A stretch of 64,000 nucleotides of DNA, from NCBI GenBank assembly GCA_043228905.1, contig JBHGNT010000017.1, positions 14,446,001 through 14,510,000 on the forward strand, written 5' to 3'. This stretch comes from Azolla caroliniana. Its lineage: Eukaryota; Plantae; Polypodiophyta. Positions 5,700 to 56,385 of this stretch are shown here, piece by piece. The first letter of the stretch is position 1; every line of letters starts with the position of its first letter. The notes beneath the pieces are model-generated. The model was given only the letters and a program-made list of their open reading frames with translations. It did not search any database and was not told the DNA's origin. Both the position numbers and the translations under genes were made by a program.

Positions 5700-7052
5700 G
5701 CAGGTACAGAAAAGAATCGAATGCTACTTGATCTTCCGCATAGACGACTTTGTCTCCCAACACATAGATGCGAGGAGGTCACGATAGTATTGTGTTGCCA
5801 TTTCCAGAATCTCAGTCTTGTCCTCCGTTATCGAGCTGTCTGGTTTTCGCAACCCTTGTATACGTCCACCACCACCCTTGGGTGCCTTGTAGTGAAAGAA
5901 ATGTCGGTTGACCTTGTCGTCTTTTCTAGCCCACCATGCTGCATTTCTTCGAAACAGCATTCGGTTCTTCTCCAAAGTCCTCTCCTCTACCTTCATCTTT
6001 GCTTCCTCCAACTTAGCTCTAGACCAAGTGCAACCAGGGTCTACCTGTAGTAGCCGTTGCGCTGCCGCAACGGCCTTCCTTAATTTTGTTTCAATGGCTC
6101 TAACCTGCTAGAGGGCGCACTTGGTCTCCTGTTGTAAGAAGGAGGAGAGGGCCAATTTTTTTTGCAAATCTTCGCTGGCTGATTCACTGCCTGTGGTGTC
6201 CTGCCATATACTTTGTAAACCGGCCTTCACCTCTTCACTCTTCATGATCTTTGTGGGGATCTTCACATTGAGACTACCCTTGCTATCGTTGGGTGGGGTA
6301 AGGTCTAGTCCTGCCGGTTGATGATCTGAAAAGGTAAGACCTGCCAAGATAGCAAAGGCGCCCCCAAGCTCTTCGAGGGATGAGCTGATGTATATGCGAT
6401 CAAGTCGTGCAAGACTACCGCCCCTAGCATTCCCGGCGGCTCTGGAAAAATGCAGTGAATGTGAGCTTCTCCTAAGGGAAGAGCCCCATGTATCCCTCAC
6501 CCCGATTTTGCCAATTAGGAAAGCCCATGAATCCAGCTCCGCACCATAAATAGGCCTCTGGGTCCCTCCTTTCCTATTTCCCAGGTGTTCAGTCATGTTG
6601 AAATCACCTGCCATTACCCAAGCCTCAGCATCAGGTAATGTTGTCGCTAGCGTCCTCCAAAAGATTGCTCTCTCGGGGGCTGAGTTAGGGGCATAAATGT
6701 TTAGCACCCCAACCTGTAGGTGATTCCATTTCAGAAGCACGTATAAGGCCCGACCCTCCAGCAATGTGCCAGATGATGTTACTTCGTATTGGGCCTTATC
6801 GCTGATCGAGATGCAGACCCCTCCTCTTCGGTGGAGGTCCCCTTGTGCAGCTGACCACCATGTGGTCCACCCACCCGACAGGGGGTTTACTAAGCTCTGA
6901 GTTCGCTCTTGCGAGAGGTGGTGTTCCTGCAAAAGCAATATGTCAATATGGCCCCCTATATTAAGGGGATTCAGCTCCTCCTGAAGTCTTCGGCACTCTT
7001 GGTTTTGTCGGCCTCCACCAAGGCCCTGTACATTCCACGTTAGGATCCTCAT
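5700..7052 (-). pseudogene. LINE (L1-like) ORF2: AP endonuclease domain and linker; frameshifted and truncated before RT
   Basis: APE motifs ILTWNVQG, LLLQE, IYAP, AGDFN, RLDRI, SDH in ORF 6108-7052; linker continues in 5724-6011 (WARKDDKVNRHFF); ends at a (TC)n tract near 5645-5672. Confidence 0.9.
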
Positions 7053-7075
7053 CCGAAAGCGGTGACGTTAACGCC

Positions 7076-7626
7076 TGTCGTGACTCTTGAGTAGGAAGCA
7101 GAGAGAGAGAGAGCGATGGCGATAGAGATAACGATAACGATAGAGATGGCGAGAGCGGTAGAGATAGCGATAGTGATAGAAAGAGAGTGAAAGAGGGAGA
7201 GAGTGCGAGAGAGAGAAAAGTATAAGTGAGAGATAAGAAATGGGAATGCGATTATATTATGAGAAAGAAGATTACAAGGAGTAGGCTAAGGGCTAAAGAC
7301 TGGTGTTGAACCGAATGAGTTGTGATGAGTGTATGGACTCTTATTTATATGCCCTTATGGAGTATTCTAGAATGTTCTAGAATATTTTAGATATTTATGA
7401 ATAATAATAATAATAAATATAATCATGAAATATTCAAGAACATTCTAGAATAATCTAGAATGTTCTAAATATCTCGTAATAACTAAACATATAATTATTA
7501 TGATTACATCTCACATATGTTATTACAATGGTTAAAGTACAATATGTAAACCAAGAGGTTATGGGTTCGATTCCTGGTTCGCCAAGATGAATGTCATGAT
7601 AAGCCAAGATGTATGTCTTCATGACA
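7076..7626 (-). repeat. 3' LTR of the chromovirus
   Basis: Near-identical to 12464-13014; adjacent PPT at 7627-7640. Confidence 0.97.
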
Positions 7627-10600
7627 TTATCCCCCCTTTTCGATGACGAGTTGCACGAGTCGGAAGAAAAGAGTTCAGACTTGGTTTATGAGGATATTGG
7701 TTGTGAAATGCAACAACCATGTCGGAGGCATTGGCAAGATGTTCGGCAGGCTCCCATGTTCGATCATTAGGTGTATAGCCTAACCAATCAACCAAGTAGT
7801 ATAGTTTGTTGCGAATGATCTTGGAGTCGAGGATAGCGGCAACCTCATATTCAGAGCCATTGGAAACGTCAATTGGAGGTGGGGGAGGTGTAACACGACC
7901 CGGAATAGAGCTCGTTGTGTAAGGCTCCAAAAGTGAAACATGGAAGACCGGGTGAAGACGCATATGAGGAGGAAGATCAAGACGAAATGTCACATCATTG
8001 ATCTTACCACTTATGACATATGGGCCAAAACGTTGATAATCCAATTTGTAGCAAGGTCGGGTCGTTTTAATGCTACCTTGTAAGAGCCATACACGATCGC
8101 CTACTTGAAATGTAGTCGATGAATCACGCCGATGACGGTCAGCAATCTTCTTTTGAGTGTTTTGGGCTTCACATAAATGATGCAAAAGCATATCCTGAAC
8201 TTCTTGGAGTCGAGTGAGCCGATCTTCAGCAGCTGGGTTTTTTGGGAGTTCAGGATGTTCAAGCATCGTCCAACGAGGATGGTACCCAATGTTTGCAAAA
8301 AATGGGGAATATCCAGTAGAAGAATGCTCGGAGTTGTTATAAGCAAATTCTGCCAAAGGTAGTAAATCCACCCAATCATCTTGTTGATAGTTGACAAAAC
8401 AACGTAGATATTGCTCGACTGTTTGGTTGGTGCGCTCACTCTGCCCATTAGTCTCTGGATGGTAGCCGGAAGAGAGTTTACAAGAAGTATGTAAGAGTCT
8501 GAACATGTGCCGCCAAAATTTCGAGATGAATTGGGGACCCCGATCACTGATAATATCATCCGGAAGACCATGATGGCGAAACACCTCCCGCATGAGTAAA
8601 TCAGCTGTCTCTTGACTAGTAATGGTCTTTGTGCATGGAAGGAAATGTGCCATCTTCGTAAAACGATCGACAACAGTGAGAATCGAATCAAATCCCTTGG
8701 AAGGTGGAAGATCCGTAATAAAGTCCAAGGAAATAGATTTCCATGGGCTCTCCGGAATAGGCATTGGCTGTAATAAGCCATATGGATGATGTCGAGGCTT
8801 TTTTGATCGGCAACATGTATCACAGCTACGAACATAATCCGTAACAAAATGGCGAAGCCATGGCCACCAATATCGGCGAGAAATCAACTCAAAAGTCTTG
8901 TGGATGCCGAAGTGTCCCGCCATTGGTGTGTCATGACATTGTTGCATGACTTTGAGTCGAGAAGGACCGTCAGGCACATACAAGAGAGTTTGTCGAAAAA
9001 GTAACCCATCATGCCAACTAAACTGGGTGTAGTCTAGACGAGGATTTTGAGTTTGGGAGCTAGATGCACGATTTGGGATAATATGGCTCAAAACCTCTTG
9101 GGCGAACGCATCAGTCGCAATCTGCTCACGAATGGAATCAAGAAGCCTTGAATCTCCCGGTGTGTTGATGGTATGCATTGCCATTATTCGTAGACGATCA
9201 GGACCTAAGAGGATTTGCTTTTGGCTTTCAAATGCGGCCTCTCCAGGTTGAAGTTCCATATACGAACGTCTAGATAAAGCATCTGCTTTTCCTTGTTGCA
9301 TCCCAGGGCGATATAGAATTACAAAATCGAAACGAGTTAAGAACTGCGCCCAACGAGCTTGTCGTCGATTCAAGACTCGAGCACTTTGAAAGTATGTTAG
9401 ATTTTTATGATCATTGTAGACAATAATCTGCTGAGAAGAACCCTCCAGAAAATGACGCCATTGTTGAAAAGAATCCACAATGGCAAGAAGCTCTTTGTCG
9501 TGAATCTCATAGTTGATTTCTGCGGCTTCAAATTTTCGTGAGTGAAAAGCCACCGGGTGCAGTTCACCATCATCACCAATTTGGGATAGTACACTTCCGA
9601 GTGCGAAATCCGATGCATCAGCTTCAAGTATAAAGCGCCTCATTGGATCGACATGGATTAAGATTGGTGCGGATGTAAATGCTTGCTTTAAACCCTCAAA
9701 TGCAGAGTTCGCATCTATACTCCATACAAATGATCGATTCTTGTGCGTCAGTTGAGTGAGGGGCAACACAATTTTTGAATAGTCTTTGATGAACTTGCGA
9801 TAAAAGTTTGCGAACCCCAAAAAACATTGCACATCTCGCACGGACTGTGGTGTTTGCCAATCCAAAATTGTTTGAACCTTTGATGGATCCATAGAGATGC
9901 CATTTGAAGAGACTATGTACCCCAAAAACTCCACTTGACGTTGGTCGAAACTACACTTCTCCAATTTTGCATAGAGACCATACTCTCGTAGCCGTTGCAA
10001 AACTTGGCGAACATGTATATCATGTTCTTCTTGAGTTTTTGAGTAGATCAAGATATCATCCAGGTAAACAATGATGAAGATATCGAGGAAGTCTCGAAAA
10101 ATATCATTCGCCATATGTTGGAAGACTGCTGGTGCATTCGTGAGGCCAAAAGGCATCACTGTGTACTCAAAATGACCATAGCGAGTGCGGAACGCCGTCT
10201 TCCATTCATCCCCAGGACGAATTCGAACAAGGTTGTAGGCACCTCGAAGATCTAACTTCGTGAAATACTTTGCTTCACTGAGGCGTTCTAGAAGGCTTGA
10301 GATCAATGGGAGAGCATATCGGTTTCTAACGGTCACTTTATTCAAGCCTCGATAATCCACGACCATACGAAGCGTACCATCTTTCTTCTTAACGAAAAAG
10401 ATGGGTGCACCAGCAGGAGATTTTGAATGTTGGATAAAACCATTTGCCAAGTTCTCATTGATATATTCTCGAAGAACCTCTAACTCCGTGGGCGAAAGAT
10501 TATAAATTGGTCCCCATGGAGGCTCTTTTCCTGGCTGCAAATCAATTGGGCAATCATATGGTCGATGCTCTGGTAGTCTATTAGCCTTCACCTTATCGAA

Positions 10601-11263
10601 CACATCGGAGAATTCTATGTACTTCTTTGGTAGTTGGACCCCCAATTCTTGTGAGCTAGATGAGGGAGTTGCTAAAACCGCAAATACCATCATGTCTTCC
10701 TTTCTTCCATCCTCTCGTAATTGATGTATAGAGATTGTTGAAATTGTGGGGGATCCTAGATCCTTAGTTGGAGCTTCAAGAGACTTGGATTGTACGGTGA
10801 CCTCTTCAATAGTTCTTTTTCTCCAATCAATGGTTGGGTTATGTAACTCAAACCAAGGAAGACCAAGAACTAGAGAGTGCTCCGGACTACTAATGATGTT
10901 AAATGAGATGACACTAGCCAAATTACCTAGGACTACACGAATTGGTTCAGACTCTTCGACTATATCTCCTGATGCTATAGGGCGACCATCGATGACTCCT
11001 ACAGCTACTGGGTTTGGGAGTTTTTTCAAGATGATGTTTTGAGTCAATGCAAACTCGCGATCCATGAAACAAGAATTGGCTCCGGAATCTAGGAGGGCAG
11101 AGGCTAGGGCGCGATGACCTGTAGATGTGCTAAGCTCGACTTGTGCAGAAAAAACTCTACTAACTTGATTTGATGAAATGGAACCACAACTAGGTACTGA
11201 CTCTACATAACTAGGATGGTCCAACCAAATGGCTCCTATTTTGGCCGGACTTATTCGTTTAAC
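7619..11263 (-). CDS. pol: Pol: protease-RT-RNase H-integrase-chromodomain, probably entered by -1 frameshift
   Basis: LLDSGA, YLDD, DAS, HDTPMAGH..CDTC, GPY, chromodomain YEVAAILD..YLVDWLGY..TWEP; frame open upstream to the slippery site. Confidence 0.96.
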   Translation of the reverse strand, partial: VKRISPAKIGAIWLDHPSYVESVPSCGSISSNQVSRVFSAQVELSTSTGHRALASALLDSGANSCFMDREFALTQNIILKKLPNPVAVGVIDGRPIASGDIVEESEPIRVVLGNLASVISFNIISSPEHSLVLGLPWFELHNPTIDWRKRTIEEVTVQSKSLEAPTKDLGSPTISTISIHQLREDGRKEDMMVFAVLATPSSSSQELGVQLPKKYIEFSDVFDKVKANRLPEHRPYDCPIDLQPGKEPPWGPIYNLSPTELEVLREYINENLANGFIQHSKSPAGAPIFFVKKKDGTLRMVVDYRGLNKVTVRNRYALPLISSLLERLSEAKYFTKLDLRGAYNLVRIRPGDEWKTAFRTRYGHFEYTVMPFGLTNAPAVFQHMANDIFRDFLDIFIIVYLDDILIYSKTQEEHDIHVRQVLQRLREYGLYAKLEKCSFDQRQVEFLGYIVSSNGISMDPSKVQTILDWQTPQSVRDVQCFLGFANFYRKFIKDYSKIVLPLTQLTHKNRSFVWSIDANSAFEGLKQAFTSAPILIHVDPMRRFILEADASDFALGSVLSQIGDDGELHPVAFHSRKFEAAEINYEIHDKELLAIVDSFQQWRHFLEGSSQQIIVYNDHKNLTYFQSARVLNRRQARWAQFLTRFDFVILYRPGMQQGKADALSRRSYMELQPGEAAFESQKQILLGPDRLRIMAMHTINTPGDSRLLDSIREQIATDAFAQEVLSHIIPNRASSSQTQNPRLDYTQFSWHDGLLFRQTLLYVPDGPSRLKVMQQCHDTPMAGHFGIHKTFELISRRYWWPWLRHFVTDYVRSCDTCCRSKKPRHHPYGLLQPMPIPESPWKSISLDFITDLPPSKGFDSILTVVDRFTKMAHFLPCTKTITSQETADLLMREVFRHHGLPDDIISDRGPQFISKFWRHMFRLLHTSCKLSSGYHPETNGQSERTNQTVEQYLRCFVNYQQDDWVDLLPLAEFAYNNSEHSSTGYSPFFANIGYHPRWTMLEHPELPKNPAAEDRLTRLQEVQDMLLHHLCEAQNTQKKIADRHRRDSSTTFQVGDRVWLLQGSIKTTRPCYKLDYQRFGPYVISGKINDVTFRLDLPPHMRLHPVFHVSLLEPYTTSSIPGRVTPPPPPIDVSNGSEYEVAAILDSKIIRNKLYYLVDWLGYTPNDRTWEPAEHLANASDMVVAFHNQYPHKPSLNSFLPTRATRHRKGGIMS

Positions 11264-12378
11264 ACATCCTCTAATTGGCTCAAGACATCAAATCTATTCT
11301 CATGGCATGGGCTAGTAGGCTTAGTACTTAAGTTATTAGAAGTGATAGTAGAACTTGATGTAGGGTTGTCATGTGCACTTACTTGGTAAACTTGACGCCT
11401 GGGTTTATGTGGACAATTCACAGCTATATGTCCTGGACCACCACAGTAGAGGCATAGGCGATGCGCCCGACGTCGTTGTTTCTCAGCATCTGATAAGGGC
11501 CCTCGACGTTGTGTCGACTCTATTTCCATCGGAGTGGGACCATCCCTCGTAACGGGTCTAGAACCTTGTGGCGGTGTGGCGACTATAGAAGCGTATGTCT
11601 GTTCCGGTTGGCAGCGTAACATTTGTTGACGTTCAGAACGTCGCTCAAATAGGCGATTATCACATCGCACAGCTCGGCTAATAGCTTCAGTAAGAGACTT
11701 TGGATCTTCATGGAAAGTAAGAAGAAGATCTTTGACATCGTTACGCAAACCCTGACGGAATTGATCCATTAAGGCTGCCTCATCCCAAGGGATGTCGCAT
11801 GCCAAGAGACGGAAATCTGCGGCATAAGCTGAAGCGGGACGATCTCCTTGTCGGAGTCTTCGAATCTTGTTTATTGCAGTCCTAGTGCTATCCGTATCTC
11901 CAAAACTAGCTTGAAACTCCTTAACGAATGCCTCGAAATCCTCCAGTAATGGTGATTTCTTCTCAAGAAGTGGTGCAAACCATGCTAACGCTGTACCGCT
12001 TAGCAAGGTTCCTATTAATCCCACACGGGCAGCATCAGTTGGATACCGATTGGGATGTAACTGAATCACCAAACGAACTTGATTCAGGAAACCTCGAAAG
12101 AGAGATCTGGTACCATCAAACTTGGCAGGGAGGCTAATCTTTGGTTCCCTTGGGGAGTTTTGAACCCCCGCCGCTTGTTCTCGTAATGTTAATATAGTAG
12201 CCTCAAGTTGATGAACCCGTTGTGATAACTCCTCATATTGATGAGCTTTCTCAGTACTGACTTGTTGAAGATCCCCGAGTAGCCTTTGATTTTCTTGCTC
12301 TAATGCCACAAACTTAGTGGTGAGCATATCGAGCTCCGAAAGGACACGCATATACTCTTGCTTGCTGACCGACTCCAT
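11251..12378 (-). CDS. gag: Gag with coiled-coil N-terminus, capsid domain and CCHC knuckle
   Basis: EPKISLPAKFDG, LRQG..YAADFR, CLYCGGPGHIAVNC. Confidence 0.95.
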   Translation of the reverse strand: MESVSKQEYMRVLSELDMLTTKFVALEQENQRLLGDLQQVSTEKAHQYEELSQRVHQLEATILTLREQAAGVQNSPREPKISLPAKFDGTRSLFRGFLNQVRLVIQLHPNRYPTDAARVGLIGTLLSGTALAWFAPLLEKKSPLLEDFEAFVKEFQASFGDTDSTRTAINKIRRLRQGDRPASAYAADFRLLACDIPWDEAALMDQFRQGLRNDVKDLLLTFHEDPKSLTEAISRAVRCDNRLFERRSERQQMLRCQPEQTYASIVATPPQGSRPVTRDGPTPMEIESTQRRGPLSDAEKQRRRAHRLCLYCGGPGHIAVNCPHKPRRQVYQVSAHDNPTSSSTITSNNLSTKPTSPCHENRFDVLSQLEDVLNE

Positions 12379-12463
12379 AACCGCGGGGGAAAAAAAAAGA
12401 AGGATAAAGAAGAAAGCTTGCTAGAGTTATTGGAGAAAGGGAAAAGAAATATTCGGTTCAAAC

Positions 12464-13014
12464 TGTCGTGACTCTTGAGTAGGAAGCAGAGAGAGAGAGA
12501 GCGATGGCGATAGAGATAACGATAACGATAGAGATGGCGAGAGCGGTAGAGATAGCGATAGTGATAGAAAGAGAGTGAAAGAGGGAGAGAGTGCGAGAGA
12601 GAGAAAAGTATAAGTGAGAGATAAGAAATGGGAATGCGATTATATTATGAGAAAGAAGATTACAAGGAGTAGGCTAAGGGCTAAAGACTGGTGTTGAACC
12701 GAATGAGTTGTGATGAGTGTATGGACTCTTATTTATAGGCCCTTATGGAGTATTCTAGAATGTTCTAGAATATTTTAGATATTTATGAATAATAATAATA
12801 ATAAATATAATCATGAAATATTCAAGAACATTCTAGAATAATCTAGAATGTTCTAAATATCTCGTAATAACTAAACATATAATTATTATGATTACATCTC
12901 ACATATGTTATTACAATGGTTAAAGTACAATATGTAAACCAAGAGGTTATGGGTTCGATTCCTGGTTCGCCAAGATGAATGTCATGATAAGCCAAGATGT
13001 ATGTCTTCATGACA
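12464..13014 (-). repeat. 5' LTR of the chromovirus; TATA at 12737-12730, predicted TSS near 12704
   Basis: Identity with the left LTR; TATAAATA on the minus strand. Confidence 0.95.
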
Positions 13015-13019
13015 ACGCC

Positions 13020-14462
13020 CATATTCGGGCCGATCCCCATGTTAAGGGGCAACCTAACACCTATTTCGGGGGGTATGGTCTCCACAGCAGGCTGCAAATC
13101 CCCTACAGGATTCTCAGCCGGTCGTTCCCGACCCGCTTCAAATAGATCCCGCGATACATTTGTGCTCCGAAGCGGTGGCACCTCTTGCATCCCTCAATCT
13201 AAGAGAGGCGTCGCCAAACCAAGTGTTGGTCGGCCTATCTTACCCTTTCCCTTGTCCTTGAGCTTGCCCGTCCGGATCCACGATTTCACTAATCTGAGGC
13301 CACTACCACCTTCACATTCCAGCGGGAGGGGGGCCTTTGCCAACTTCTCTTCCGGGGTGGACGGTACGAGTTGGGGTTGCATCTCCATCGGGGTAGAGAA
13401 CACAAGTTCAGGCTCTCGCGGGGGAAGGCATGAGGAGTCGCATGGGGACAACATTGCTGCCAGCGCTTCTGGGTCACCATCCCCTAACCCTTGAAGAGGT
13501 GTAAATCTGTTGGTAGCTCTCACCTGTAGGTCGGGTGCATCAGCACTCCCGGAGAGGATCTTTACCCGTTTCAAGGGTTGCTCGTCCGCGCTTGCTGGTG
13601 ACAAGGTAGCGAGACTTCTTTCAAAGGGGTGGTCACGAAAAAGGGTGGAAGAGGATGCACCTAGGCCTCCAAGTTTCCCCTTCTTCTTAGCGGGTATCCA
13701 AGGAGCCTCGTCACCCTTGGTTGGCCCGACTTTGCCCGAGGGTGGAGGTCCCGAGCTTCCCGTTCCAATCTTGCGAGGACACGCCTTAGCTAGGTGTCCT
13801 GTCTGTTTGCAAATGAAACACTGCCCCGGAAGTCCTTCGTAAACCACTTTCACCACTGTGAGACCTAGCTCCTCAAAGTAGAGTCTAATCCTTGATGGAA
13901 GTCCTTGGAGGGAAGGCACCAAGATGCGCAACTTGGGCACCTCCGCAATTGTGTCTGCCATTGACACTTTTTGAGGACATATCATCCCTATTTGTTCGCC
14001 AAAAAGAGGGAGCAGATGGCACAAATGAGGAGGGAGGCCGGGAAATGTTGCGTTGATCACCCTAGGGTTGTTGAGTTTCCGTAACTCTTCAATCGGATTG
14101 AACCCTGGTGACCATGGCTGAAGCAACACCTTGCCGTACTTCAGTTCGAGTACCTTGAGCTCGACCAGTGGTTGCGCCAGCGAGCCATTACCTAATTCGA
14201 TGTGGAAGAAGTTTTTCCCTAAACCCCTGACACTCTTGATCACAGGCATGTTCTCCATCACAGCCACCTGGAACATGTCCCGAACCATTCCTCGACTTGG
14301 TCTACCTGCCAGAAACCTACATATGAAGGAGGTACGTCGTAGACGTTCGATTTCCTCCAATAAGAAACGGTTGGCCTCAGGGGACAACGTAATGTCGAGA
14401 TTTGAACCACCTTCTTCATCGAGCAAACGGGTCGTTGGTGGAAGCACGATTCCTCCCTCCAT
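13020..14462 (-). pseudogene. LINE ORF1 (DUF4283-like + zinc knuckle) with one internal stop; last codons lie at 7075-7049 across the chromovirus insertion
   Basis: LGKNFFHIEL, LQPWSPGFNP, VYEGLPGQCFICKQTGHLAKAC; frame continues past the TGA at 13194. Confidence 0.9.
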
Positions 14463-14789
14463 AGCGAGTAATGTGTCTTGCGAGGCTATCTATGTAGGTC
14501 TTCCCTTCCCCCTTTGTTTTGTGTGTTGTTTAATTAATTAATTAATGTACGTTTTTTGGTTGGGGGAGGGAGGGAGGATTGTGGGTGTGGGAGTACCTGG
14601 ACAACAGCTGGCGTTCTGCTCCTGCTCCTGCTCTGGTGGACAGCGCGCGCGTTCTTCATCGTGCACCTGTACCTGCGCCTGCGCCTACTCCTGTTCGCCC
14701 TGTCTGCACGCCCTGTTCTGCTACTCCCACTCCACGCTCTGCTGCTGCTCGCGCTCCCGCCATCACTCGTCGTTCGTGACCTAAATAAT

Positions 14790-41150: not shown

Positions 41151-41909
41151 CTTTAACCAGCCATATGAGCTCTATCTATAACCACCCATGGGGATCTCTT
41201 TCAAAGGATTTCATCACCAACCTACCATGTTGATGGAGGAGAAAGAGTTTGTATTTATAGTCATAAACCACTTCACCCCAAGACGCCCATATCCTATCAT
41301 GTTCAAAGCCGACCTCAGAGGAACAAAACTACAACCATCCAACTGAAACAATTCCATGGTCTTCTCGAGGTGAAATCACTTCGGATTGGGGACACCAGGC
41401 TGTGGCACACTTCAAGAACAGGTTGTTCGAGCATATCAACACCTTGGAAAAGCTATGCCTGCCCATGCCTTGTGCAAGCGCTCAAGTGGTTATAGCAAGG
41501 GTTCGCGTGTTTCGACCCGAGGAGGCATCATTCAGAGTTTCTGCTCTCGGGTCTGAATCGAGCTCGGACATCCTTGCAAGTCAAAGTGAGGCCTTTCAGA
41601 GGAGGATTGCTGCCCATTTCCCAGGAGCGATAGATACGGGCATGTGCAAAACGTATAGCTTAGCCAAGGGCATCCGGACAAAACTCCGGTTTCTCTCTTG
41701 GACATGGACATGACATGGATATGGTGATGGAACCCACACATGAATGAATGAATGAAACAGAGAAGTTGAGAACAGGATTAGATATTTTTCCACTGGTTTT
41801 TATTGAGGGCCTGTGATGATGAATGGATATGGAAGGGGGCCAGGGACTGAGAACCACAGGCATGGCAATGAAGCTGAGCAAAATCACCAGTAAATGATGA
41901 ACAACAGAT

Positions 41910-43637
41910 ATGGCAATGATCCTTAGGTATGCACTCCCTCCTCCCCTTCACAGCCTGACTCTTGAATCCCATGAACCCAGCTCAGGTCCACCCAAAAAGC
42001 TCAAGCAGAGAAGGTCTTCAGGGCTGCTCCGTGAACGGATCCCCGAGAAAAGCGCCGTAGAACAAGAATTCCAGACTCGGAGGTCTAAGCATACGTTGAA
42101 GCTCTTAAAAGATGCAGTGAATCTCCTCGACGGGCAGAATCTCGAGATCGATACCGAAACTCTCGCGGTTCTCATCAAGAGCTGTACAAATGCAGATTCT
42201 CTCCCTGCTGGTCAGTTTGTTCATCAACATATACTTACAAATGGCTACGAAGGAGACACTTATCTATGCAATTTCCTCATGGAAATGTATGGTAAATGTG
42301 GTGATATTGAAGAAGCTCGGTTCATATTCGACGAATGCATCTATGAGCCAAATGTGTTCTCATGGACCATTATCATTTCAGCCTATATTCATCACAGGAA
42401 ATTTGATGAAGCTCGGAACCTTTTCCGAGAAATGCAAGTAAATGGTGTGAAACCAAACACGTTTACTTTTAGTACGATTCTCGCGACATGTTTGAATCCA
42501 GCCCATGGCGAAGACGGCGAACAAATCCATGCAGATGCAATCCTTAATGGGCTTGATGTTGATGTTGTCGTAGGAACATCTCTGATCAATATGTATGGGA
42601 AATGCAAGACTAAAGAAGATGCTTTATTTGTCTTTGAAAAGATACAACATCGAGATCCTGCAGCATGGAATGCTATTATATCAGTTCATGCCCAACACGG
42701 AGATAGTGAGAAAACCCTTATGTTGTTTCAACACATGAGGGAGAATCGTGTCAAACCGAATGCCATCACATTTTCAAGTGTCCTTGGGGCATGTAATAAT
42801 CCTAACTATTTAGTGCATGGTGAAGCTATCCATGCCAAAATAGTGGGTAAAGGTTTCTTCTCTGACACTGTCATTCAAAATGCTCTAATAGATATGTATG
42901 GGAAATGTGGTTGTGTTGTTAATGCGCGGTCAGTATTCGAGAAAATGCAATCTCGGAATGTTGTTTCGTGGACATCTATCATTGGGGTTCATGTGCAGCA
43001 TCCTCGACAAGCTCTTCAGCTTTACAAACAAATGCTCTCAGACCGTTTACAACCGAATGAATTCACATTTCTTTCTGTTCTTGCCGCTTGTGGCAATCTC
43101 AAATCTTTAGAAGAAGGCCAACTTGTCCATACGTTAATTATTGAGAACGGACTTTGCTCTAATGTAGCAGTAGCAACTTCCTTAATTAGCATGTATGGGA
43201 AATGTATGGAAGTGGACAGTGCGAGATGGGTTTTCGATGATATGAACAGACGGGACTTAGTGTTATGGAATGCTATGATTGCTGTATATGCACAACATGG
43301 GCTTGGTAAAGATGCTCTTGATGCTTTCCATCGAATGCAAAAAGAATGTGAGAAACCAGATACGATTACATTTACAAGTATCTTCAATGCATGTAGTCGC
43401 TCAGGTCTCGTTGAAGAAGCTTGTCATATTTACAGATCGATGGAGAAAGACTATAACATACTTCCATCCATAGAACACTATGGGTGTATGGTTGACCTTT
43501 TTGGACGGTCTGCTTTAATGGAGGAGGCAGAGGATTGTATTGATACAATGCCGCTCATTCCAAATGTGGTTATATGGGACACTTTTGTAAATGCTTGCAG
43601 AGCTGAATGTGATAAAAAACAGATGCAACTTACTTGA
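41910..43637 (+). CDS. PLS-class pentatricopeptide repeat protein, ending in a partial E domain without DYW
   Basis: Repeated triplets LI.MYGKCG / WNAII / PN.ITF.SVL.AC; terminal IEHYGCMVDLFGRS..PNVVIWDTFVNACR; Ser/Pro/Arg-rich N-terminus. Confidence 0.95.
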   Translation: MAMILRYALPPPLHSLTLESHEPSSGPPKKLKQRRSSGLLRERIPEKSAVEQEFQTRRSKHTLKLLKDAVNLLDGQNLEIDTETLAVLIKSCTNADSLPAGQFVHQHILTNGYEGDTYLCNFLMEMYGKCGDIEEARFIFDECIYEPNVFSWTIIISAYIHHRKFDEARNLFREMQVNGVKPNTFTFSTILATCLNPAHGEDGEQIHADAILNGLDVDVVVGTSLINMYGKCKTKEDALFVFEKIQHRDPAAWNAIISVHAQHGDSEKTLMLFQHMRENRVKPNAITFSSVLGACNNPNYLVHGEAIHAKIVGKGFFSDTVIQNALIDMYGKCGCVVNARSVFEKMQSRNVVSWTSIIGVHVQHPRQALQLYKQMLSDRLQPNEFTFLSVLAACGNLKSLEEGQLVHTLIIENGLCSNVAVATSLISMYGKCMEVDSARWVFDDMNRRDLVLWNAMIAVYAQHGLGKDALDAFHRMQKECEKPDTITFTSIFNACSRSGLVEEACHIYRSMEKDYNILPSIEHYGCMVDLFGRSALMEEAEDCIDTMPLIPNVVIWDTFVNACRAECDKKQMQLT

Positions 43638-54327: not shown

Positions 54328-55333
54328 TGTTAGACACCTCCGAGCCTCACACTCACTTAACAATTAGTAGATGAGTAAGCACGATATCTCTCTCACTCTC
54401 TCAAGCTCACTCTGATAGACAATAGGGTAATGAATGTAGAAAATAAGAGTAATGAATATGTTTATTAACCCTCTTTGCTAAGAGGTCTAGCACCAACAAG
54501 GAAGAGAGATTAGTGTTCTTTAACTAAACACCTCACTAATCTCTCTTAAGCTTAAAGGTTACAAGAAGGAGGAGAGGAAGCTCTAGGTCTTAATCAATAG
54601 GGAGATCTTTACAAATGGAAGAACCCTTACAAAACCACCACCATGTGGTTTATATAGCATTTACATTTAGGGTGTGGACCTTTCACACTTGGATGTCCCT
54701 TAGTCGTCTTTCCTCTTGCCGTTCCCTCTTTGTAGGTCCATTAGCCATACTACGTCCTTGTTGATGTGCTCTTCTTCATTACCGGTCGTGGTGCGATCCA
54801 AGCACTTAACATCCCCCCCAACCTAATGAGTGCACACCCCCGGGTGCAGTGTGGGAGGGGAGCTTCAGGCGTCGGGGGCAAGAAGGATAGAGTAGGGGGG
54901 TTCGTTAGGGGGTGGGTGGTCGGCGGCAAAGATGGTGGCGAAGACGGCAGATGTTGAGCGGTGGTAAACAGATTTCTTGCATTTGATCGGTCGTCGTGAA
55001 GAAGTCCTTCTTGGGGCTGGTTATCCACGTGGTGGTGTTTTAGCCGGCTAAGGGAGAGGGGGGTTTCTACCAAAACTAATGTAAGCGGGAAAAAAGCGTG
55101 TGTCGATCATGGTTTCAAAATCCCGTTTGTAGATGGCGAGGAGCACGTTGACGCGGGTCTAGAGGCTGACCAGTTGATGACGTTTGAGGCCTTTATTCAA
55201 ATCAAATGCGAGAGCCCACGCTGGTTGGTCGTGTTGCTTGAATGCAAGGGTCTCATAAGGGCTAGAGTCGAGGAGGATGAGCAGCAGTTGCAAAAAATGA
55301 AGACTGGCTTGAATGTCGAGGTATGTACGAGGG

Positions 55334-55805
55334 AAACGTCATACATGGTCTCTCATGCTCGTTGGTGTTTCAATTATGCGTGAGGACCGCACATAGTCGC
55401 TCACGCCCGTTGGTGTTCCAGTTCTCCGTGAGGACCGTACATGGTCGCTCACATCCATTGGTGTTCTAGTTCTCGGTTAGGACCGCACATGGTCACTCAT
55501 GTCCGTTGGTGTTTGTGTCTCTGGTGAGGACCGCACATGGTCGCTCATGCCCATTGGTGTTCTAGTTCCCCATGAGGACCACACATGGTCACTCACACCG
55601 CTTGGTGTTCGTGTCTACGGTGAGTACCGCACATGGTTGGTCACACCCATTGGTGTTCCAGTTCCCAATGAGGATCGTGCATGGTCTCTCATGCCCGTTG
55701 GTGTTTGCGTTCCTGGAGAGGACCGTACATGGTCGCTCACACCCGTTGGTGTTCTAGTCTCCGGTGAGAACAACACATGGTTGCTCATGCTGGTTGGTGT
55801 TCCAC
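55334..55805 (+). repeat. 48-bp tandem repeat, about 10 copies, just upstream of a PPT
   Basis: gaggaccgcacatggtcgctca variants at 55382, 55430, 55478 and onward. Confidence 0.92.
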
Positions 55806-55847
55806 TCTCCACTCACCCCTACACAACACTTTCGAAAAGGCGGTCGT

Positions 55848-56385
55848 AAAGGGGAGGATAATGTCGCAATACAATGACATAAAATATATAGTTGGTGAGG
55901 ATTGAACTTACAACCTCACATGAACAATACATCATCCTCAACTATCTTCATATGAGCATTGTATAACATATATTTGGTCTACATATCATTGTATAAGATT
56001 ACATGATCTAAGTATACTATCTAGACATCTGTAACAAAGTTCTAGAAAGTTCCAAGGTTCTAAAAGGTTTTAGAATATTCTTAAAAATATTGTAACGTAT
56101 GTACTTCAACTTAGAGTATAAATACTTGTAACCTTCATGGTCCCTTTCAAGGGATTCAGCACCAGTCACTGACATGTTAATCTAGTATTCTTCATACTCC
56201 TCATTTCGTTGCTCCCAACTTCCCCAGTTTCATTGATCTTCATATTTGTCTTCATACTCTCTAGTTACTCACAACTTCTAGAGTTCCTAGCATCGTCACT
56301 TCAAGTTTCACGTTCGTAACCTTATCATTCGTAGCCTCGTGTCATCCGTGCTTCGTCGTAGTCCATGGTTGGTGTGTCCGTGACA
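55848..56385 (+). mobile_element. PPT and 3' LTR (55862-56385) of a second chromovirus-like family
   Basis: AAAGGGGAGGATAA|TGTC resembles the young element's PPT junction; ends GTGACA; TATAAATA near 56117; ttctagaa-type motifs; no 5' LTR or TSD seen. Confidence 0.75.

What the first reader, a model, noticed from the sequence alone, without database searches (positions are those of the whole stretch)
7513..7584. tRNA-like A/B-box module, antisense in U3, in the LTRs of two different families
Seen: both LTRs of the young element carry TATTACAATGGTTAAAGTAC..GAGGTTATGGGTTCGATTCCTGGTTCGCCA (7521-7584 and 12909-12972). This has a perfect B box (GGTTCGATTCC), tRNA-like spacing from the D-loop TGG, and a CCA end, but no anticodon stem. 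It is antisense to the element and about 40 nt from the outer LTR end. The otherwise dissimilar LTR at 55862 has GAGGTTGTAAGTTCAATCCTCACCA in the same relative place and orientation (55917-55893). Established: B boxes bind TFIIIC and can act as chromatin barriers in yeasts and animals. Inference: these elements may carry a built-in insulator or Pol III promoter that shields the LTR promoter from flanking heterochromatin.
Basis: partly seen in the sequence, partly recalled or inferred. Interest (0 to 1): 0.8.

Follow-up and report, generated by a model that had tools for sequence, protein, structure and literature searches.

The report
Backward tRNA promoter in retrotransposon ends
Many families of protein-coding jumping genes in this plant genome keep a backward-facing copy of the two promoter boxes of a tRNA gene in their end repeats, while the tRNA's folded shape is lost; it likely binds the tRNA-gene factor TFIIIC and would help keep the element's own promoter open, which is untested.

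Summary
Confirmed and wider than reported. The motif lies antisense in outer U3 of both LTRs of an intact, self-priming Tcn1-like chromovirus. 84 of 90 sampled PPT-LTR junctions of this lineage carry it, in families whose Pol proteins fall to about 45-55% identity and whose U3s no longer align. Across 28 family representatives the D-loop TGGT, positions 44-47 (RGGT) and GTTCRANYC stay fixed, mostly at tRNA spacing; stems, anticodon arm and the 'CCA end' do not. Two families of an unrelated tRNA-Trp-primed Ty3/gypsy lineage carry the same antisense module. The genome holds 6,614 intact modules (control 0). The window's second family is a non-autonomous relative, not an independent case. The pattern fits a TFIIIC site selected at DNA level better than a Ty3-like tRNA-annealing site, which is not excluded. 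Shielding is untested: no RNA or chromatin data were available, and the module does not track the chromodomain. Closest known: Helenus TRIMs (sense strand, non-autonomous). The scan had not noted this feature before.

The parts
7521..7574 (+). tRNA-derived A/B-box module in U3 of the 3' LTR, antisense to the element: T8 7521, G18-G19 7530-7531, positions 44-48 7556-7560, B box G53-C61 7565-7573
   Evidence: sequence; best A/B score in window; cross-family conservation
12909..12962 (+). identical module in U3 of the 5' LTR, pointing out into the flank
7076..7626 (-). 3' LTR of family A (551 bp, TG...CA)
12464..13014 (-). 5' LTR of family A; TATA about 12732-12737; predicted start of R about 12704
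12451..12461 (-). self-priming PBS, 11 nt complementary to the predicted 5' end of the RNA (12694-12704)
   Evidence: same layout with covarying letters in 4 other families
7627..7642 (-). polypurine tract; on the + strand it ends in a T4 run (possible Pol III stop for the 3' LTR module in this family only)
7619..11287 (-). pol ORF, 1222 aa stop to stop: RT, RNase H, integrase, SH3, chromodomain with the three cage aromatics
11251..12420 (-). gag ORF with zinc knuckle
7364..7450 (.). heat-shock-element-like nGAAn arrays between the module and the TATA box (also in the 5' LTR)
   Evidence: 4 three-unit matches; function untested
7071..7075 (+). 5-bp target site duplication (other copy 13015-13019); the target is a LINE split between ORF1 (13194-14489) and endonuclease (6108-7067)
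55898..55952 (-). module in family B LTR, antisense; G53 at 55907; G18 lost in this copy
55862..56385 (+). 3' LTR of non-autonomous family B, preceded by a PPT and 48-nt tandem repeats (from about 55284)

Best explanation
The LTRs of this retrotransposon lineage carry, antisense in outer U3, a tRNA-derived A-box/B-box module that has kept its promoter letters and lost its cloverleaf; it likely acts as DNA that binds TFIIIC and would keep the neighbouring Pol II promoter open against silencing from the flank. Shown: position, orientation, lineage-wide retention, letter-specific conservation, recurrence in an unrelated lineage, self-priming of the host elements. Inferred: capture from a tRNA-headed SINE-like repeat, then purifying selection during transposition. 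Inferred from yeast biochemistry: TFIIIC reads positions 44-47 and 53-61, and the A-box remnant would place TFIIIB on the AT-rich U3 DNA between module and TATA box. Untested: occupancy in the plant, any antisense Pol III RNA, and the barrier or open-chromatin effect. Odds: about 0.7 that it is a TFIIIC/Pol III DNA site, about 0.45 that its main benefit is to the element's Pol II promoter.
For: 84 of 90 PPT-LTR junctions score above the 95th percentile of shuffles (median 20.2 bits against -0.1; next 130 nt 7 of 90; other chromovirus clade 0 of 26); 60 of 90 have an exact GTTCRANYC (counted). Pol identity to family A falls to 54% (L147) and 42-53% in segments (L152, L154), and U3s of distant families give no BLAST alignment. 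In 28 family representatives G19, T47, G53, T55, A58 are 28 of 28; T16, G18, T54, C56 27 of 28; G46, T20 26 of 28; position 57 is a purine in all; position 59 takes all four bases. [quoted passage not shown] CpG decay: aged copies show TG 6 times and CA twice at 56-57, family representatives TG once and CA 11 times (Fisher p=0.004). G53 never turns to A while G51, G52, G57 do so in 26 of 84 cells (p=0.0002), which wobble pairing to a tRNA would not predict. G18-G53 spacing is 34-36 in 24 of 28, as in 14 of 17 tRNA genes of the assembly. T-stem pairs fall from 28 to 8 of 28 by the fifth pair. The same antisense module occurs in 7 of 30 tRNA-Trp-primed, chromodomain-less elements (2 families, one with two tandem modules) and in 11 metagenome loci.
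Against: No occupancy, chromatin or RNA evidence. Within family B the module (0.92-0.97 per 15-column block) is no better kept than the rest of U3 (mostly 0.92-0.99, two blocks lower), so most genomic copies decay neutrally. Family A3 has a fixed T54C, outside the B-box consensus but fine for wobble pairing. The 5' half of the A box is weak (T8 0.68, G10 not kept). No conserved upstream TATA and no conserved T4 terminator (T4 inside the LTR in 6 of 28). One sub-clade (L229, L232, L233, L247, L263) keeps only a decayed version and related elements L265/L266 lack it, so it is dispensable. Presence does not follow the chromodomain. The Fisher tests treat related families as independent. No plant barrier of this kind is reported (PMC9540200, passages). 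The B-block can still pair 12-19 nt with some host tRNA.
Confidence: 0.47

Rival explanations
1. RNA-level site: the element's RNA carries the complement of the T-arm and D-loop in its 3' U3 and anneals a host tRNA, as the 3' half of Ty3's bipartite PBS does, for dimerisation, packaging or end-bridging, even though priming is self-made.
For: Same place and strand as Ty3's U3 segments that bind the T and D arms (PMC5371799, passages). The 44-65 block forms 12-19 nt runs with some tRNA of the assembly when G:U is allowed; 18 nt with a Lys-TTT gene for family A. T54C in A3 and G-to-A at 51, 52, 57 are wobble-compatible.
Against: Pairing is no better than for column-shuffled blocks (15.5 against 15.0 nt; -29.3 against -28.8 kcal/mol; perfect complement -45), although that null keeps column preferences. 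The Trp-primed families pair only 7-8 nt with tRNA-Trp, their own primer. C48T (7 of 28) and C62T (16 of 28) give A-C mismatches; G53 never wobbles. Only 47 tRNA sequences of about 12 amino-acid types, some probably organellar, were held.
Confidence: 0.2
2. A working Pol III promoter whose product matters: the 3' LTR copy would make a short antisense RNA over the U3 end and PPT (about 125 nt in family A) that limits copy number or feeds small-RNA pathways.
For: A and B boxes at tRNA spacing with AT-rich upstream DNA; the A box serves TFIIIB placement rather than TFIIIC binding in yeast (PMC11724288, passages); T4 right behind the PPT in family A.
Against: No conserved terminator or transcript length; the 5' LTR copy reads into arbitrary flank; A-box 5' half decayed in most families.
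Confidence: 0.15
3. A neutral relic of one or more SINE insertions into an ancestral LTR.
For: A free SINE-like family matches the D-family module at 87% over 79 nt; copies decay neutrally after insertion; some sub-clades lost it.
Against: Letter-specific retention across families whose Pol is about 50% diverged and whose other U3 DNA is unalignable; CpG asymmetry at 56-57; same strand and region in an unrelated lineage.
Confidence: 0.08
4. The module works on the unintegrated cDNA or in target choice: bound TFIIIC tethers the cDNA end or attracts new insertions, as Pol III factors do for Ty3.
For: It lies 15-72 nt from the U3 end in the Tcn1-like families, in family E inside the terminal inverted repeat.
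Against: Only 2 of 32 family A flanks hold a strong A/B module, both other LTRs of the family; in the Trp-primed family L370 the modules lie about 170-390 nt inside the LTR.
Confidence: 0.07

Closest known systems
Helenus / TRIMp3 (Kojima 2024, PMC10886601; text parts 1-4 of 6, passages, 4 supplement passages)
   Same: tRNA-like sequence inside LTRs, conserved around boxes A and B, mostly no functional tRNA; same RGGTC before the B box in the supplement sequences seen; SINE-into-LTR origin proposed.
   Different: Helenus are non-autonomous, 311-1263 bp and tRNA-primed; in the sequences seen the module is on the sense strand near the LTR 3' end before a T run. Here it is antisense, in outer U3, in autonomous 5.9-8 kb elements with a TATA-type promoter. 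The paper expects autonomous elements to use Pol II and notes without detail that 'not a few LTRs' in Repbase resemble part of a tRNA.
Cassandra and Ajax TRIMs (as described in PMC10886601)
   Same: Pol III internal promoter captured in an LTR.
   Different: 5S-derived, sense, drives the element's own RNA (shown for Cassandra), conserved terminators.
Ty3 bipartite PBS (PMC5371799, passages)
   Same: Sequence complementary to tRNA T and D arms in U3 of a Ty3/gypsy RNA.
   Different: Ty3 binds the same tRNA at its 5' PBS; these elements self-prime or use a tRNA that the module does not match.
tDNA/ETC TFIIIC barriers of yeasts and animals (PMC11724288 and PMC9540200 passages; Simms 2008 and Noma 2006 seen only as reference titles)
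   Same: B-box DNA without a functional tRNA.
   Different: Host loci, not carried and selected by an autonomous retrotransposon; no plant case reported in the review passages.
Tcn1 clade chromoviruses (PMC6317226, PMC2864245, PMC3350952; passages)
   Same: Chromodomain with aromatic cage, self-priming, 5-bp TSD, two ORFs.
   Different: No tRNA-like LTR module in the passages read; more distant relatives from metagenomes lack it (0 of 30 above 12 bits).

Membership tests
Tcn1 chromovirus (host element) | RT-RNaseH-integrase followed by a chromodomain with the three aromatic cage residues | tested here: met
   Pfam hits; Y, W, Y in place
Tcn1 chromovirus (host element) | self-priming PBS complementary to the RNA 5' end | tested here: met
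   11-12 nt match 33 nt after TATA in A, A4, C, C1, E, with covarying letters; by sequence only
Tcn1 chromovirus (host element) | clusters with named Tcn1 references in an RT-RH-INT tree | not tested
   tree has no named references
Helenus / TRIMp3 | tRNA-like sequence with boxes A and B in the LTR | tested here: met
Helenus / TRIMp3 | short, non-autonomous element | tested here: not met
   5.9 kb with open gag and pol; L360 7.9 kb
Helenus / TRIMp3 | module on the sense strand, able to transcribe the element | tested here: not met
   antisense here; sense in the Helenus sequences seen
tRNA gene or pseudogene | cloverleaf with acceptor, D, anticodon and T stems | tested here: not met
type 2 Pol III promoter / TFIIIC site | B box GTTCRANYC | tested here: met
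   perfect in family A; 60 of 90 junctions exact; invariants
type 2 Pol III promoter / TFIIIC site | A box at tRNA-like distance | tested here: inconclusive
   TGGT and spacing kept, 5' half weak except in C and D families
type 2 Pol III promoter / TFIIIC site | upstream TATA/CAA and downstream T4+ terminator (PMC13578239, passages) | tested here: inconclusive
   AT-rich but no fixed TATA; T4 inside LTR in 6 of 28
type 2 Pol III promoter / TFIIIC site | TFIIIC occupancy or Pol III transcription | not testable with these tools
   needs ChIP or stranded raw reads
Ty3-type bipartite PBS | U3 segments complementary to T and D arms of a host tRNA | tested here: inconclusive
   12-19 nt with wobble, no better than shuffled columns
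Ty3-type bipartite PBS | same tRNA primes at the 5' PBS | tested here: not met
   self-priming; Trp-primed families pair only 7-8 nt with tRNA-Trp
chromatin barrier insulator | blocks spread of silent chromatin | not testable with these tools
   no chromatin data

The most novel reading that the evidence does not exclude
Autonomous plant LTR retrotransposons have, in at least two unrelated Ty3/gypsy lineages, captured tRNA-type TFIIIC sites and turned them outward as a built-in insulator for their Pol II promoter, seeding thousands of TFIIIC sites across the genome and offering the first sequence-defined chromatin barrier in a plant.
Probability: 0.33. Interest if true: 0.88.

Novelty: new variant of a known kind. 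Interest (0 to 1): 0.68.

Why it matters
Pol III boxes in LTRs are described for tiny non-coding TRIMs, where they transcribe the element. Here they face backwards in coding elements, so they must do something else, and selection has kept them over deep divergence and in two lineages. A 2022 review says barrier elements remain largely unidentified in plants (PMC9540200, passages); a 55-bp module with defined invariant letters makes a TFIIIC barrier directly testable. If it instead anneals tRNA, it would show a tRNA role in elements that do not prime with tRNA. Thousands of such modules (6,614 pattern matches, about 4 of the first 30 being tRNA genes) could also compete for TFIIIC.

Tried and rejected
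RNA evidence: no RNA holder listed; four runs laid were contigs and show neither strand nor level; one contig of run X1 covers the module with three listed changes, none in the B box, too thin to use. tRNA gene or cloverleaf: rejected. CCA end as a mature-tRNA or primer relic: out of register and not conserved. Target for 5' or 3' tRNA fragments: conservation stops at 61 and is patchy over 1-15. Conserved RNA hairpin: family-specific only (sense fold of A z -1.0; B z -2.2; family C has its own internal hairpin). Pol III-targeted insertion: 2 of 32 flanks. Within-family conservation test: no excess, uninformative because copies decay after insertion. Link to the chromodomain: not found. WRKY W-box as the reason for positions 44-48: considered from recall, absent in family A. 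In the metagenome set 9 of 79 loci were left out because the match ended far from the C-terminus, and many others had too little DNA or no located LTR. No covariance model was built because no shared structure exists. Host organism not determined.

Full report
The host element. The motif lies in both LTRs of a 5.9-kb element on the minus strand (LTRs 12464-13014 and 7076-7626, one mismatch, TSD ACGCC), inserted in a LINE. It has open gag and pol frames with RT, RNase H, integrase, SH3 and a chromodomain with the three cage aromatics. Its PBS is not a tRNA complement: 11 nt match the LTR 33 nt after the TATA box, and the same layout holds with covarying letters in four other families. This is the self-priming described for the Tcn1 clade (PMC6317226, passages). 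The family is young: all 40 scored LTR hits were 100% identical. The genome is 523 Mb; a PPR gene in the window points to a land plant; the host was not determined.

The observation. The module is on the + strand at 7521-7574 and 12909-12962, antisense in outer U3, with a perfect B box and G18-G53 spacing of 35. It is not a tRNA: no ARAGORN or Rfam hit and no stable fold. The CCA falls at tRNA positions 70-72, not 74-76, and is not conserved. The LTR at 55862 belongs to an older, abundant (1,317 candidates) non-autonomous family with the same PPT junction and a self-priming PBS, so it is a relative and not a second origin. Among 30 aligned copies of that family the module is no better kept than most of U3.

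Spread in the lineage. To sample without using the motif I searched the PPT-LTR junction (2,693 matches, control 3) and took 90 of the first 100 listed; the 10 left out belonged to families already held or lay beside a taken site. With a matrix from 17 tRNA genes of the assembly, 84 of 90 pass the 95th percentile of shuffles on the antisense strand of the first 130 nt (median 20.2 bits; shuffles -0.1). Controls: sense strand 39 of 90 (median 4.5; the T-loop is nearly palindromic), next 130 nt 7 and 8 of 90, upstream DNA 17 of 90, the other chromovirus clade 0 of 26. The threshold is lenient; 60 of 90 have an exact GTTCRANYC. Pol identity to family A runs from 91% down to 54%, and 42-53% in segments for D families; distant U3s do not align. 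A strict genome-wide pattern gives 6,614 matches, control 0; of the first 30, 17 are LTRs of this lineage, 6 the SINE-like family below or similar, 4 tRNA genes, 2 another Ty3/gypsy, 1 unassigned.

What is conserved. In 28 single-copy representatives (20 from G000, 8 from metagenomes) the fixed letters are T16 G18 G19 T20, A44 G46 T47, and G53 T54 T55 C56 R57 A58 C61; 59 is free; the anticodon arm and flanks stay at or below about 0.7; spacing is 34-36 in 24 and 42 in 4; T-stem pairing decays from 28 to 8 of 28. The box positions were used for anchoring, 44-48 were not. [quoted passage not shown] The CpG at 56-57 gives an alignment-free test: aged copies show TG 6 and CA 2, families TG 1 and CA 11 (p=0.004, families not independent). 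G53 resists the G-to-A change that 51, 52 and 57 accept (p=0.0002, same caveat). Against this, family A3 fixes T54C and one sub-clade keeps only a decayed module.

Beyond this lineage and genome. Of 79 metagenome loci, 70 were examined; 11 carry the module, all from ERZ-prefixed records at 53-86% identity; 0 of 30 other loci with a located LTR start exceed 12 bits, some starts being uncertain. In an integrase tree the module sits in two well-supported clades, with module-less L265/L266 and decayed L263 between them: one gain with losses or two gains. L360 is an intact chromodomain-less Ty3/gypsy (23% identity to family A Pol) with a tRNA-Trp PBS and two tandem antisense modules in U3. Among 30 Trp-primed elements, 7 in two families carry the module and 23 do not, apart from two isolated hits far upstream. 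A free 215-bp repeat in GA microsatellites (2,006 candidates), with a tRNA-like head and A-rich tail, matches the D-family module at 87% over 79 nt; it is a likely donor, but the direction of transfer is not shown.

Mechanism. Because the module faces away from the element it cannot make the genomic RNA, unlike Helenus, where it is sense in the sequences seen. Letter-specific retention without structure, tRNA-like spacing, tandem duplication and recurrence fit a protein-read DNA site, and TFIIIC is the known reader. Its place between flank and the heat-shock-like arrays and TATA box suggests a barrier or open-chromatin role; this is inference. The Tcn1 chromodomain type binds H3K9me in MAGGY (PMC3350952, passages), but presence of the module does not follow the chromodomain. 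The main rival is tRNA annealing to U3 RNA as in Ty3 (PMC5371799, passages): pairing of 12-19 nt is possible, yet no better than shuffled columns, and the Trp-primed families do not match their primer (only 47 tRNA sequences held). An antisense Pol III RNA lacks a conserved terminator. Insertion next to Pol III sites is not seen (2 of 32 flanks).

Literature. Ten full-text searches found Helenus, Cassandra and Ajax, Ty3's PBS and yeast or animal TFIIIC barriers, but no antisense tRNA-box module in U3 of autonomous LTR elements. The library lacks most subscription journals and Repbase, and Kojima mentions undetailed tRNA-like LTRs there. I read parts 1-4 of 6 of PMC10886601 and four supplement passages; passages of PMC6317226, PMC2864245, PMC5371799, PMC11724288, PMC3350952, PMC9540200, PMC13578239 and bioRxiv 10.64898/2026.03.01.708851; other titles only as listings. 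Supplements of the Tcn1 papers were not read and may hold LTRs that bear on spread. tRNA numbering, box consensus and the HSE motif are recalled. Family labels are mine.

Verdict. Real, selected, lineage-wide and recurrent; a new variant of Pol III-box-bearing LTRs; function likely through TFIIIC, shielding untested. Interest 0.68.

Noticed in passing
L356:1872-2025, L407-L423 (G000): About 215-bp SINE-like repeat in GA microsatellites with two head-to-head tRNA-like modules and an A-rich tail; 2,006 candidates; its head matches the D-family LTR module at 87% over 79 nt.
   Followed up: partly
L360 (G000:C1:905500-915000), L366, L392: Young tRNA-Trp-primed, chromodomain-less Ty3/gypsy families with one or two antisense A/B modules in U3; lineage not named.
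   Followed up: partly
window 7364-7450 and 12752-12838: Arrays of heat-shock-element-like nGAAn units in U3 of clade A, C and D families, absent in D2 and E; suggests heat-responsive transposition.
   Followed up: no
window 7299-7315 (- strand) and L141-L148: The self-priming 5' end of R itself reads like a sense B box in families A and C; it changes with the PBS in D and E, so probably coincidence.
   Followed up: no
L129, L130, L367: LTR pairs inverted exactly at the self-priming site, as if fold-back products of self-priming were integrated.
   Followed up: no
L147, L162, L267: In family E the B box sits in the loop of the LTR's terminal inverted repeat, 15 nt from the end.
   Followed up: partly
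L371, L373: Two Trp-primed families have a sense B-box-like motif about 60 nt before the LTR 3' end, without a clear A box.
   Followed up: no
L260, L261: Tcn1-like metagenome elements with an extra TATA-preceded ORF between pol and the 3' LTR.
   Followed up: no
window 55284-55830: 48-nt tandem repeats before the PPT of family B, also seen after the LTR region of L263.
   Followed up: no
G000 C5:17.99 Mb, C8:17.80-17.82 Mb, C16:4.99-5.11 Mb: Large tandem clusters of tRNA-Lys and tRNA-Trp genes.
   Followed up: no
window 41901-43637: PPR-repeat gene among the retroelements.
   Followed up: no
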